The position numbers are program-made. From assembly GCA_951406725.2 (NCBI GenBank), contig OX597827.1, positions 31,992,001 to 32,056,000 of the forward strand: a DNA stretch of 64,000 nt. Reading direction: 5' to 3'. The first letter of the stretch is position 1, and each line of letters begins with the position of its first letter. Positions 37,058 through 40,864 of the stretch are shown here, piece by piece. Source of the DNA: Octopus vulgaris (taxonomy: Eukaryota).

Positions 37058-39293
37058 GTCGAACACGCTTTTATATAGACAGACATAGTGACACAGATAG
37101 ATAAACAGAGACAGAAGAGGACCCTCACGCATTTATATGCATACACACAGGTAAGCAGACAATACATTTTTTTATAGCAACACTAATAAATCTACTTAAC
37201 TCTACATCTGTTCGCACACGCACAATGAATAGATATATATGTATATATGGATAACAGAGAGGGCGAAAGGTATCGGGGATAATGGTGTTACATTGTGAGC
37301 CGAAAAGAACATATTCTCCGGTATGATGTAAATATGCAGCTCGCGACTGTTGAACGAGGGTGGATGACAACTGGACGAAGACAGGTGTTGTAGACAACAA
37401 ACAGATGTATTAGTATAACGCTCGGGAAGTGAAAAAGTCTTTAACGTTTCGAGCCTACGCTCTTCCACAGAAAGGAACATAGAAAGAAACAAAGAAAGAA
37501 AATAAAGGCTGTGTAGTGGCTAGCTATCTATCATGGCGAATGCTGGACAGAAGGGTCATAAAGGAGAGCTAGGGAGAAGGGGAGATAATAAAGTAGTGGT
37601 GATCCCAAAACGAAGGTGTGCTGGTGATCTTGACGTGTGCGATATAGTCATGGTATATTCTGTCAAGAACGTAGTAGAGTACAATATAGAGCTCGTCCAC
37701 CTCCAGATTTACCGGAGACATATGACCTGAGGAAGCACAGCTAGATCTCATAATGCAGGGAAACAGTTGCATAATCAAGTACCTGCACACTTGGAAAACT
37801 ACGTTGCGTCGAAACAACTGTAGTGATTAAAAAATAAATGTCCAACCATTTATCTTTTAATCACTACAGTTGTTTCGACGCAACGTAGTTTTCCAAGTGT
37901 GCAGGTACTTGATTATGCAACTGTTTCCCTGCATTATTAGTTGACTCCATTTTCTTCAATTACATATATATATATATATATATGTATGCATATATGTATT
38001 TATCCATGCATATTTGTGTATGTATGCATATGTGTGTATACATATATGCATATTTGTGTGTGTATATATGGAAACCCCAGCTTGCAGATATTAGCATATG
38101 TTTCATGCCATTCTCTTACTTACAATCAGTAACGGATTACGTACCCTTGTTTGCACAATATGCGTTTATAATGCATGAACCAGTCGTCGCATCTTTGAAA
38201 CAGCTGTAAAATCTTACCTTTATCTTGTAATATGAACGTGGGCATATAACATCTCAATATAAATATTTTCTTGTTCACTATTACTGTTTTGTGACTTTCT
38301 TTCTCATATACATGCGTGTGTGTGTGTGTCTGTGTGTGTGTGTGTGTGTGTGTATGTGTGTGTGTGCATATCTTCCTTGTTTAAATTTTGAATTTTGACT
38401 GCGGCCATATTGGAGCCAATCGATCCCAGGACTGATTCTTTGTAAGCCTAGTACTTATTCTATCGGCTTCTTTTGCCGAACCGCTAAGTGACGGGGATAT
38501 AATCACACCAACATCGGTTGTCAAACCATGGTGTAGGGACAAACACAGACGCACAAACATATGCACACACACATACACGCATACACATACATACACACAC
38601 ACACACACTCACACACGCATATATATATATGACAAGCTTCTTTCAGTTTCCGTCAACCAAATCTACTCACAAGGCTTTGGTCGGCACGAGGCTATAGTAA
38701 AAGGCACTTGCCCAAGGTGCCACGCAGTGGGACTGAAACCGGAACCATGTGATTGGCAAGCAAGCTACTTACCACTCAGCCACGCCTGCGCCTATATATG
38801 TCTTTTTAATTAAAAATTCATTCCGACGGCCACCTGCTTGGTAGCAAGATTCTGAAGGGAAGCATCTTGCTTTTTCTCATCCTTAAAATCTTAAAAAAGT
38901 TTCGCAGTTTTATATTGTTCCTGATATCTTGATTACTTGTAGTGTATGAATTAACGAGTTGAAACCTTTTCCCCAAGAACCCCAAGTCCGCACAGGTTAA
39001 TACATATCCAGTTAATTCAATAACTTCCGGCGTGAAACCAAACGCTTTTCGCCTATATTTTCCTGACTATATTGGTGTCAAGGGGGCATCTGGTTTCCAC
39101 AACAGAACATGTTTTGCTTTGTGGACCCAGACAACAATATCTGAACGATACATACATTATTTACATTTGACGGATATTTGTCCTCATCTTTTTTGTTGTT
39201 AACACAACGTTTCGGCTGATATACTCCCCAGCCTTCATCAGGAGTCTTGGGGAAATTTCGAACCTGGGTTCTCATTCGCAAGGTATTTTTCGA

Positions 39294-39353
<60 letters not shown>

Positions 39354-40864
39354 CATTATTATTGTTATTGTGGACATATGGCGTAGTGGTTAATAGCGTT
39401 GGTTCGATTCCAACAATAACAATAATAATAATACTTTCGAAATATACCTTAAGAATGAGAGCCCAGGTTCGAAATTTCCCCAAGACACATGATGAAGGCT
39501 GGAGGGTATTTTAGCCGAAACGTTGTGTTAACAACAAACAGGATGAGGACAAATATCCGTCGAATGTAAATACTGTCAATAATGTAAATAATGTAAATAA
39601 TTCCTTATCTCTTAAATATAGAACTGAATGATACATGTATGTATGTATGTATGTATGTATGTATGTATGTATGTATGTATGTTTGTAATATGTTTGTTGA
39701 TGAGAACCAGACCAGCTTATAGAGAAAAAAAAACGTGCTTGAGGAATATTCTGTATTTGGTGACTCTTTCAAAGAATTTCAATTCGCTTCCAGCTAAGAC
39801 TATTCAAAACAAATTGGATGCGGAATTGGTATAATTCTTATAGCGTCTGGTTGTACGACCCTCGGCGTTTGTTTCAGCTCTCTGCCGTCTGGATCAACTT
39901 TGCCTAAAGATACAAGAAAACCGTTTGATCCGTGCCAAGCGGCTACCTAAAAGGTTAGAAATCCTTACGAACATGACATGCTCTGGTTCTTCTCTGATGA
40001 GGAAAACTCGACCAAGACAAAACGGTAGAAATAACATAGTTATGTGCAAAACGGTAGAAATAACATAGTTATGTGCAAATCGTTTTGATGTCCCCAGGGT
40101 GATGCACATTAAATTTCCAGCAACTGCGACGGTTTTAGGAGTGGTGAGTAACGAAGATCATGTCATATCTTCCACTGGGGCTTAGAATTAATGCTGTAGG
40201 ATATGTTGCGATGTTGGAGAGTTATTAAGTCCTGGATGAATGAAGTTCACAGTGGAGGGTTTTTGTACTTGTTTCAGCAAGACTCAATATCTCACAATAC
40301 CCACGTAACCCCAAGATAGATATCAGACAACTTTTATGATCATGTAACCCCAAATTTGTGGCCTCCAAGCTCGCCAGTTTTATATTCATTTCATGGACTA
40401 CTACGTATCGAGTGGTGTTGAAAGGGAGACTATTTGACATCCTCACAATATCATAGCTTCACTGAAGGCAGCCATCGCCCAGGCGATATCCAAAGTGAAT
40501 AAGGAGCATTTAGTGCAGACATGTCAAAGATTCCGGTCCCGCATCGAAGTCGTTAAGGCGGAAGAAAGCTTCTAAAAATCAAGGACACAAATTTTCATCA
40601 AAATACATTTAGCCTCTTCCAGATGAGAATTGGTTTATGAAATTACCCAATATGTCCTCAGATACATTTCACACCTTGTTTTAATAAATACACACAAACA
40701 CATATATCTGTAAGTGTATGTATCATAAGAATTTAGTAACTTCGAGAGATGTGAAATATAGCATTTTAACGGAGGAACTCGAAGTAGACAAAGTTTAAAT
40801 ACTAATAAAAAAATATATATATATTCATATTCTGAGTTTTACTTTTTCTGTTTTGCATCAAGAT

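What the first reader, a model, noticed from the sequence alone, without database searches (positions are those of the whole stretch)
39141..39636. One TSD encloses an inverted HHR half plus a full family E copy, suggesting a concatemeric or circular RNA template
Seen: 39154-39369 is the inverted (AAT)n-HHR-tail part, joined directly to the head of a direct copy (39370-39623). Both lie inside one 13-bp TSD with one mismatch. The inverted piece duplicates the 3' part of the unit, which ordinary twin priming of a monomer would not give. Inference: twin priming or template switching on a head-to-tail dimer or circle, or the PLE-style inverted terminal repeat. Tandem copies would also supply the partner that minimal HHRs need to dimerise.
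Basis: partly seen in the sequence, partly recalled or inferred. Interest (0 to 1): 0.8.

Follow-up and report, generated by a model that had tools for sequence, protein, structure and literature searches.

The report
Penelope-style inverted-plus-direct retroelement insertion
A small ribozyme-bearing mobile element landed here as a back-to-front partial copy joined to a full copy inside one target duplication, which is the usual footprint of Penelope-like retroelements and needs no circular or tandem RNA template.

Summary
A 165-nt inverted repeat (88%) joins a minus-sense partial E copy (39154-39369) to a full direct copy (39371-39622). The composite is flanked by CTGAACGATACAT / CTGAATGATACAT (12/13).

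Three further points:
- The E body carries a minimal type I hammerhead (extra base after A9, G10.1-C11.1, palindromic ACGU instead of helix III). Rfam models miss it. It matches the published Penelope-like (PLE) min-HHR description.
- The inverted arm lacks the last 28-37 nt that the direct arm has.
- The other full E copy (58495-77) starts with a 30+30 palindrome inside its own short duplication.

An inverted 5'-truncated copy beside the direct one, a 30-40-bp "tail" on one arm only, and 5' palindromes are all published PLE insertion signatures. A PLE protein has been shown in vitro to cleave and extend both strands from two nearby RT start sites.

Best reading (about 0.6): E is a non-autonomous PLE-type element and this is one both-strand-primed insertion. 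The direct arm starts exactly at the unit's 5' end and there is no tail-to-head junction. This argues against a dimer or circular template (about 0.07).

No PLE gene lies in the window and no eukaryotic genome could be searched, so family-wide tests remain open. It is a new member of a known kind, of moderate interest.

The parts
39141..39153 (.). Left target-site duplication, CTGAACGATACAT
   Evidence: Read. It matches 39624-39636 at 12/13; chance rates are.
39154..39295 (-). Inverted arm A: E body in minus sense (min-HHR and the start of the AATGTAAAT repeats). It is 3'-shortened: the last 28-37 nt of the unit are missing.
   Evidence: It is 91.6% identical to copy C over 167 nt.
39201..39246 (-). 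Minimal type I hammerhead of arm A. The core CUGAUGA and GAAA are intact. There is an extra A after A9, a 6-bp helix II, ACGU in place of helix III, H17 = U, and helix I paired at 4 of 5 positions.
   Evidence: Descriptor scans. The exact core pattern has a single match in the window. Helix II is predicted in both the MFE and the centroid fold.
39296..39369 (-). (TTA)24.7 array: the unit's internal (AAT)n read in minus sense, expanded relative to the 6-7 repeats in B and C. It forms the inner end of the 5'-truncated inverted arm.
   Evidence: TRF; alignment.
39370..39373 (.). Junction of the two arms (G TGG). TGG may be microhomology shared by the end of the inverted cDNA and the first bases of the head.
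   Evidence: Reading. This is an inference.
39371..39622 (+). Direct arm B, a complete E unit from its 5' end to its 3' end. The head has A- and B-box-like motifs and an internal deletion relative to C. It is followed by (AAT)6, the body, the AATGTAAAT repeats and the tail.
   Evidence: nhmmer covers model positions 1-243 of 243; alignment.
39484..39529 (+). Min-HHR of arm B. The core is inactivated (C3 to A) and helix I pairs at 5 of 5 positions.
   Evidence: Relaxed descriptor scan.
39596..39623 (+). The 'tail': the 3'-terminal stretch present on the direct arm and on copy C but absent from the inverted arm. It is 28 nt long, or up to 37 nt depending on the nonamer register.
   Evidence: Alignment; TRF nonamer array 39563-39601.
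39624..39636 (.). Right target-site duplication, CTGAATGATACAT. It runs into an (ATGT)13 microsatellite at 39635-39687.
58465..58494 (-). Sister copy C: an inverted copy of the first 30 nt of the head. It forms a spacer-less palindrome with the start of the direct copy.
   Evidence: BLAST self-hit 58465-58524, 80% over 60 nt, E 1e-9. 24 of 30 arm positions pair, centred at 58494|58495. It is one of only 2 non-simple palindromes of this quality in the window.
58495..58777 (+). Sister copy C, a full E unit with the longest head. Its min-HHR at 58648-58693 has two defects (G12 to A, and G10.1 to A). The copy lies inside an older SINE and is flanked by CCCCA (58457-58461) and GCCCA (58778-58782).
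   Evidence: The host-repeat alignment across the insertion was read.

Best explanation
Family E is a small non-coding retroelement of about 250-285 nt. From 5' to 3' it has:
- a head with pol III A- and B-box-like motifs;
- an internal (AAT)n;
- a minimal type I hammerhead;
- AATGTAAAT repeats;
- a roughly 30-nt terminal tail.

It is probably copied in trans by a Penelope-like element (PLE) reverse transcriptase/GIY-YIG endonuclease. The stretch 39141-39636 is the product of one such insertion.

Proposed steps (all inferred; only the end product is seen):
1. The endonuclease cuts both strands 13 bp apart at CTGAAYGATACAT, next to an (ATGT)n microsatellite.
2. The bottom-strand 3'-OH primes reverse transcription at the terminal start site. 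Synthesis runs off the 5' end of a linear E RNA and gives the full direct arm with its tail.
3. The top-strand 3'-OH primes a second cDNA, on a second E RNA or on the same RNA after displacement. It starts at the internal start site 28-37 nt upstream. It copies through the hammerhead and stops at the (AAU)n/head border, giving the tail-less, 5'-truncated inverted arm.
4. The two cDNA 3' ends are joined, possibly through TGG microhomology, and gap filling makes the 13-bp TSD.
5. Later changes were expansion of (TTA)n to about 25 units, about 12% divergence between the arms, and a deletion in the head of B.
For: Shown in the sequence:
- One 12/13 TSD encloses both arms.
- The tails face outward and the heads inward.
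- The inverted arm lacks the terminal 28-37 nt.
- The direct arm starts at the same base as copy C's direct sequence.
- Pairwise arm divergence is 17 of 144 ungapped columns (11.8%). This is compatible with 1 mismatch in the 13-bp TSD, so both arms can be as old as the TSD.
- The min-HHR descriptor gave 1 hit (N7 = U) or 2 hits (any N7) in the window, against 0 hits in 300 simulated windows each time.
- The motif shows features I did not select for. They are named as PLE min-HHR hallmarks in Cervera & de la Pena 2014 (PMC4209133, passages): an extra base between positions 9 and 10.1, G10.1-C11.1, a 4-5 bp helix I, and palindromic 15.2-16.2.
- 2 of 2 full E copies carry an inverted piece at the 5' junction inside the TSD.
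- The same scans found no head-side inverted partner or 5' palindrome in the other 37 repeat-bearing segments of the window.

From papers:
- A rotifer Penelope has an inverted pLTR 37 bp shorter than the direct ones, a 31-bp tail, a 9-bp TSD, and 18- and 38-bp palindromes at pLTR 5' ends (Arkhipova 2013, PMC3846280, passages).
- An anole PLE protein cleaves and extends both strands and starts RT at two adjacent internal sites, which bound the tail (Frangieh 2024, PMC11167929, abstract and passages).
- Penelope is among the abundant families in octopus genomes (PMC8967140, passages). The one named protein hit of the window is from Octopus vulgaris.
Against: - No PLE gene is in the window. Pfam found no RT or GIY-YIG domain in the 30 of 59 ORFs of at least 120 aa that I scanned. 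No similarity of E's 3' end to a PLE could be tested.
- No partial tandem (pLTR) is seen: 0 of 3 copies.
- Rfam hammerhead models give nothing.
- All three copies have at least one hammerhead defect. Three copies allow no covariation test.
- The monomer fold is no better than shuffles (z = -0.02).
- I wrote the descriptor after seeing the motif.
- The head is not recognised as tRNA by ARAGORN or by Rfam at E<=10.
- That the tail-less end is a recurrent start site rests on one copy.
- The arms are no closer to each other than to copy C. Private differences are A 6, B 9, C 5 over 144 columns. A shared origin in one event is therefore allowed but not shown.
Confidence: 0.6

Rival explanations
1. 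LINE-type twin priming that does not involve a PLE. A LINE endonuclease/RT nicks both strands, and the top strand primes internally by chance on a second E RNA or on the same RNA after strand displacement.
For: The topology is the same as L1 5' inversions: inverted 5' part, direct 3' part, one TSD of about 13 bp. L1 TSDs have a median of 13 bp (PMC12016303, passages). There is 1 nt of possible microhomology (T 39153) at the internal priming site (I21). The window is full of SINEs that presumably use LINEs.
Against: In human L1 the two cDNAs overlap by a median of 12 bp (quartiles 4-17). 5' inversion was seen in 1 of 5,936 germline Alu insertions. Here the overlap is at least 165 nt and 2 of 2 full copies have a 5' inverted piece. 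There is no A-rich or simple-repeat 3' tail. This reading does not explain the min-HHR or the 28-37-nt offset.
Confidence: 0.12
2. One reading: canonical twin priming or template switching on a head-to-tail dimeric or circular E RNA. The direct arm is unit n+1 and the inverted arm is unit n.
For: On a dimer, the inverted arm's priming site would lie only 28-37 nt upstream of the start of the direct arm. That is the near-abutting geometry of canonical twin priming. Min-HHRs are thought to cleave only as dimers, and HHR-bearing animal repeats are reported as tandem arrays and circRNAs (PMC4209133 and PMC7761336, passages).
Against: The direct arm starts exactly at the unit's first base, and no tail sequence precedes the head. 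cDNA copied from a dimer or circle should carry the upstream unit's tail there. 0 of 3 E copies in the window is tandem. A cleaved and ligated circle would be permuted at the HHR site (39524|39525 in B), and no such permutation is seen.
Confidence: 0.07
3. Two independent insertions. Arm A, with its (TTA)n end, inserted first and made the TSD. Copy B later inserted exactly between the microsatellite and the right TSD copy without making a visible TSD of its own.
For: PLEs have a microsatellite insertion bias and sometimes insert without a TSD (PMC8557442 and PMC3846280, passages). Other SINEs in this window end in (ATT)n and sit head-to-tail at such arrays, for example 61414-62314. The arms are no more alike than unrelated copies.
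Against: It needs a hit at the exact array/TSD border, because no TTA repeats lie to the right of B. B has no TSD of its own. Arm A would still be a 3'-shortened copy.
Confidence: 0.12
4. A DNA-level rearrangement after a simple insertion: fold-back or inverted duplication by replication or repair.
For: Long hairpin-forming repeats are unstable, and the junction lies at a slippery microsatellite.
Against: The outer end of the inverted arm abuts the left TSD copy to within 1 nt. A later duplication would not regenerate that. The sister copy C shows a different inverted 5' structure, also inside its TSD.
Confidence: 0.04

Closest known systems
Penelope-like element (PLE) insertion architecture: pLTRs with an adjacent inverted 5'-truncated copy and an optional 30-40-bp tail
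   Same: Shared features: an inverted 5'-truncated copy directly 5' of the direct copy inside one short TSD; a tail of about 30 nt on one arm only; a min-HHR in the repeated part; a 5' palindrome in a sister copy; and a target next to a microsatellite.
   Different: E has no ORF and is only about 0.25 kb long. No partial tandem (pLTR) is seen. The head carries pol III-box-like motifs. No partner PLE was identified.
Schistosoma Sm-alpha / Sj-alpha SINE-like retroposons (pol III promoter followed by a hammerhead)
   Same: Both are short non-coding retroposons with a promoter-like head followed by a type I hammerhead (review PMC6765202, passages).
   Different: The schistosome elements carry canonical hammerheads with a real helix III that Rfam-type models detect, and they often sit in tandem. 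E has a helix-III-less min-HHR and is dispersed here. I made no sequence comparison, because I held no schistosome sequence.
Metazoan non-LTR retrozymes
   Same: Both are small non-autonomous HHR-bearing repeats thought to depend on PLEs (bioRxiv 10.64898/2026.07.22.740005, abstract and passages).
   Different: Retrozymes are defined by tandem units, each with an HHR, and by circRNA. E is solitary in 3 of 3 copies, and its insertion shows a defined linear 5' end.
L1 twin priming (Ostertag & Kazazian 2001; recalled, and cited within PMC12016303)
   Same: Both strands prime cDNA. The product has a 5' inverted part and a 3' direct part inside one TSD.
   Different: L1 cDNAs abut or overlap by about 12 bp and end in poly(A). 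Here the whole inverted arm (at least 165 nt) is duplicated in the direct arm, and there is no A tail.

Membership tests
PLE-type (Penelope-like) non-autonomous element / PLE insertion signature | Inverted 5'-truncated copy immediately 5' of the direct copy, within one TSD | tested here: met
   The criterion is from PMC8557442 and PMC3846280.
PLE-type (Penelope-like) non-autonomous element / PLE insertion signature | Optional 30-40-bp tail present at one end only (two RT start sites) | tested here: met
   The direct arm and copy C carry 28-37 nt that the inverted arm lacks. This is one case only, so recurrence is untested.
PLE-type (Penelope-like) non-autonomous element / PLE insertion signature | Minimal type I hammerhead (extra base 9/10.1, G10.1-C11.1, palindromic 15.2-16.2, short helix I) | tested here: met
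   Descriptor hits, with 0 hits in 300 simulated windows. Caveats: the descriptor is post hoc, each copy has at least one defect, and activity is untested.
PLE-type (Penelope-like) non-autonomous element / PLE insertion signature | Partial tandem copies forming pseudo-LTRs | tested here: not met
   0 of 3 E copies in the window is tandem, and there is no tail-head junction.
PLE-type (Penelope-like) non-autonomous element / PLE insertion signature | 3' end shared with an autonomous PLE (RT plus GIY-YIG) of the same genome | not testable with these tools
   No RT or GIY-YIG domain was found in the 30 of 59 ORFs scanned. No eukaryotic genome collection is available.
PLE-type (Penelope-like) non-autonomous element / PLE insertion signature | Insertion bias for microsatellites | tested here: inconclusive
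   1 of 2 E insertion sites abuts a microsatellite, (ATGT)13. Copy C sits in a SINE.
Metazoan non-LTR retrozyme | Tandem repeat units, each with a type I HHR | tested here: not met
Metazoan non-LTR retrozyme | Expression as self-cleaved circular RNA | not testable with these tools
   No transcriptome data are available.
L1-type twin-priming product | Inverted and direct cDNAs abut or overlap by only a few to tens of bp on the template | tested here: not met
   The overlap is at least 165 nt, against a median of 12 bp in L1.
Hammerhead ribozyme as modelled in Rfam | Match to an Rfam hammerhead covariance model | tested here: not met
   There were no hits at gathering score. None appeared at E<=10 in 39050-39750 or 58440-58800.
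tRNA-derived SINE | Head recognisable as tRNA-related | tested here: not met
   ARAGORN found 0 genes. There was no Rfam tRNA hit at E<=10 on copy C's head. The A- and B-box likeness is my reading against recalled consensus motifs.

The most novel reading that the evidence does not exclude
E is a SINE-like element with a pol III-type head whose retrotransposition partner is a Penelope-like element, not a LINE. Because E is so short, each insertion keeps a full readable record of PLE integration: priming on both strands, two RT start sites about 30 nt apart, run-off at the RNA 5' end, and snap-back palindromes. An octopod genome would then hold a natural archive of a mechanism so far seen only in vitro with one lizard element.
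Probability: 0.4. Interest if true: 0.55.

Novelty: new member of a known kind. Interest (0 to 1): 0.4.

Why it matters
PLE integration is poorly understood. The two-strand cleavage and extension and the two RT start sites have been shown in vitro for a single anole element (PMC11167929).

A short, abundant non-autonomous family with the same footprints would allow a genome-wide count. The count could cover start-site use, arm lengths, junction microhomology and palindromes.

It would also show that part of the large octopod SINE load may depend on PLEs and not on LINEs.

For genome annotation, it warns that inverted SINE pairs of this kind are single events. It also warns that Rfam-based hammerhead scans miss these motifs.

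Tried and rejected
- **Rfam.** The gathering-score scan of the window gave 0 hits. The whole-window E<=10 scan gave 437 hits, of which only the best 150 were shown. These were all microsatellite-driven miRNA-like noise, and the other 287 were not seen. The targeted scans gave no hammerhead or tRNA hit.
- **ARAGORN.** No tRNA was found.
- **Arm age asymmetry.** The raw BLAST identities suggested arm B was much older than arm A. A proper three-way alignment removed this: private differences are 6 versus 9, binomial p = 0.61.
- **Canonical cis hammerhead.** No complementary helix I fits a long helix III closed by ACG/CGU, and no type III arrangement fits. I rejected both by reading.
- **Snap-back origin for the A/B composite.** I rejected this because the palindrome is not centred on the 5' end. 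It does fit copy C.
- **Other inverted pairs as comparators.**
  - 11965-12771 is two SINEs tail-to-tail, which is the wrong topology.
  - 37747-37940 and 47477-47810 are TIR/hairpin elements.
  - The repeat finder missed the copy C palindrome, which has no 9-nt exact seed. BLAST and my own scan found it.
- **Taxon search.** The protein search for longer relatives of ORF 7087-7566 found none.
- **Paper not held.** Lunse et al. 2017 (PMC5785218) is not in the library.
- **Not run.** The bacterial/archaeal genome-contig collection and the phage, plasmid and E. coli collections cannot hold this eukaryotic repeat.
- **Not seen.** Supplementary figures of PMC4209133 (min-HHR families) and PMC11167929 (genomic tail ends) were not available. 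They may bear on how closely E's motif and tail match.
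Full report
**What is there**

The window is AT-rich (GC 0.32-0.44) and packed with short repeats. 37 segments have at least 9 partners in a self-comparison.

Its one named protein relative is from Octopus vulgaris, at 85% identity over a third of a zinc-finger ORF. The source is therefore probably an octopod. This rests on a single hit.

At the reported place the sequence reads as follows:
- left duplication CTGAACGATACAT (39141-39153);
- a minus-sense partial copy of a repeat, arm A (39154-39369), ending in (TTA)24.7 at 39296-39369;
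- directly after it, a complete plus-sense copy, arm B (39371-39622);
- one A;
- right duplication CTGAATGATACAT (39624-39636), running into (ATGT)13.

The arms pair over 165 nt at 88%.

A profile search finds only one more copy in the window, copy C at 58495-58777. It finds no tandem pair.

**Is it more than chance?**

The inverted repeat has BLAST E = 1.9e-57.

A 12/13 match at a fixed offset occurred in 13 of 10.2 million position pairs of a shuffled window. In the real window, microsatellites included, it occurred in 4,048 of 10.2 million pairs. The duplication is therefore real.

The 13 bases left of arm A are target DNA, not a decayed piece of the element.

**Anatomy of the unit**

The unit has these parts in order:
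- a head whose motifs resemble pol III A and B boxes;
- a short (AAT)n;
- a body;
- two to four AATGTAAAT repeats;
- a terminal stretch ending ATATAGA.

The A/B-box likeness is my reading against recalled consensus motifs. ARAGORN and Rfam do not call the head a tRNA.

Arm B and copy C end at the same base. Arm A stops in the nonamer repeats, 28-37 nt earlier.

Arm B begins with TGGACAT. In copy C the same base is the centre of a spacer-less palindrome: bases 58465-58494 are the reverse complement of the first 30 nt of the head, with 24 of 30 paired.

Copy C sits in an older SINE. Alignment with other copies of that SINE shows the host sequence ending at CCCCA (58461) and resuming at GCCCA (58778). 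The inverted head piece therefore also lies inside the duplication.

**The ribozyme**

No Rfam hammerhead model matches. The core CUGAUGA...GAAAC alone is not significant: 1 match against 0.36 expected.

Read against the numbering system, arm A gives:
- helix I 5' strand GACUC;
- CUGAUGA;
- an extra A;
- helix II GGCUGG/UCAGCC;
- GAA;
- A-CG-U;
- H17 = U;
- helix I 3' strand GUGUU.

This is a type I hammerhead whose helix III is reduced to the palindrome ACGU.

Cervera and de la Pena (PMC4209133, passages) describe this 'min-HHR' for PLEs. They list as unselected hallmarks:
- the base between positions 9 and 10.1;
- G10.1-C11.1;
- a 4-5-bp helix I;
- palindromic 15.2-16.2.

They argue that it works only as a dimer.

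A descriptor written to those features gave 1 hit in the window (2 when position 7 is left free). It gave 0 hits in 300 simulated windows in each case.

Caveats:
- I wrote the descriptor after seeing the motif.
- Each copy has a defect. A has a U.U in helix I. B has C3 to A. C has G12 to A and G10.1 to A.
- Three copies allow no covariation test.
- The monomer fold is unremarkable.

**How the composite arose**

Neither arm alone touches both duplication copies. The first event at this site must therefore already have been the composite, unless a second element landed exactly at the array/duplication border.

The topology is that of priming on both strands: tails outward, heads inward, and the inverted piece on the 5' side.

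It differs from L1 twin priming in two ways.
- L1 twin priming gives cDNAs that overlap by a median of 12 bp. Here the overlap is at least 165 nt.
- In a human long-read survey, 5' inversion was seen in only 1 of 5,936 germline Alu insertions (PMC12016303, passages). Here both full E copies have an inverted 5' piece.

The same scans find none at the head side of the other repeat families in the window.

Published PLE features match point by point.
- A rotifer Penelope has an inverted pLTR 37 bp shorter than the direct ones, a 31-bp tail, a 9-bp TSD, and 18- and 38-bp 5' palindromes taken as self-priming (PMC3846280).
[quoted passage not shown] It starts reverse transcription at two adjacent internal sites that bound the tail (PMC11167929).

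In that element the start sites lie about 85-92 nt after the hammerhead cut site. This is my arithmetic from the positions in the passages. In E the two ends lie 52 and 98 nt after the predicted cut site.

Penelope is listed among the abundant families in octopus genomes (PMC8967140).

**Dimer or circle?**

On a head-to-tail dimer the geometry would look like canonical twin priming with a 28-37-nt gap, which is attractive.

Several points count against it:
- The cDNA of the direct arm should then carry the upstream unit's tail in front of the head. Instead it starts at the unit's first base.
- That base is the same one defined independently by the palindrome centre in copy C.
- No tandem E and no permutation at the cut site is seen.

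I put this reading at about 0.07.

**What the divergence says**

Over 144 ungapped shared columns the private differences are A 6, B 9 and C 5, plus 2 three-way sites.

The arms are thus no closer to each other than to copy C. This fits a burst of near-identical copies and does not discriminate between models.

The expected number of mismatches in a 13-bp duplication at the arms' 11.8% divergence is about 1.5, and 1 is seen. Both arms can be as old as the duplication.

**Verdict**

E is a new member of a known kind: a PLE-type, hammerhead-bearing, SINE-like element. It resembles the schistosome Sm-alpha elements in layout and PLE pLTRs in its insertion footprints.

The partner PLE, the recurrence of the tail-less end and ribozyme activity remain untested, because only this window could be searched.

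Noticed in passing
window 1026-1062 (-): A second, unrelated minimal hammerhead-like motif (CUGAAGA, extra A, 4-bp helix II, GAAA-CG-U-U, helix I 4/5). It lies in single-copy sequence between a (CA)n and a (TA)n microsatellite. It may be a dispersed PLE-type min-HHR or a pLTR remnant.
   Followed up: partly
window 37747-37940: A 194-nt hairpin with arms about 95% complementary and a loop of about 20 nt. It is single-copy in the window and looks like a MITE or foldback element.
   Followed up: no
window 47477-47810: An element with terminal inverted repeats of about 110 bp (68 nt at 94% plus 49 nt at 82%). It is probably a non-autonomous DNA transposon.
   Followed up: no
window 11965-12771: Two copies of another SINE family (tRNA-like head, internal (TG)n) lie tail-to-tail with a spacer of about 70 nt, 78% identical over 843 aligned nt. 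This is the opposite topology to the E composite, so it is not a twin-priming product.
   Followed up: partly
window 61414-62314; also 17167-17470, 43768-44038, 54751-55051, 62795-63259, 63457-63961: Head-to-tail runs of other SINE families, joined at 61414-62314 by (ATT)n arrays of 17-25 units. Either new copies target the simple-repeat tails of older ones, or multimers are inserted.
   Followed up: no
window 39454-39480, 58620-58647 and 27595-27612: The E body holds a second B-box-like stretch (CCCAGGTTCGAAATTTCC). An 18-nt identical match lies in an unrelated SINE copy. The E body may itself derive from a tRNA-like SINE part.
   Followed up: no
window 7087-7566 (-): An open frame with three CxxC...HxxxH zinc-finger-like units. 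It has weak Pfam zinc-finger matches and is 85% identical over a third of its length to an unnamed Octopus vulgaris protein. It could be a transposon remnant or an exon.
   Followed up: partly
window 39411-39433 versus 39345-39369 and 58566-58599: At the head/(AAT)n border, arms A and B share the variant CAATAACAAT where copy C has CCTGAACATT. This is a weak hint that A and B came from the same source variant, but the stretch is low-complexity and its alignment is ambiguous.
   Followed up: partly
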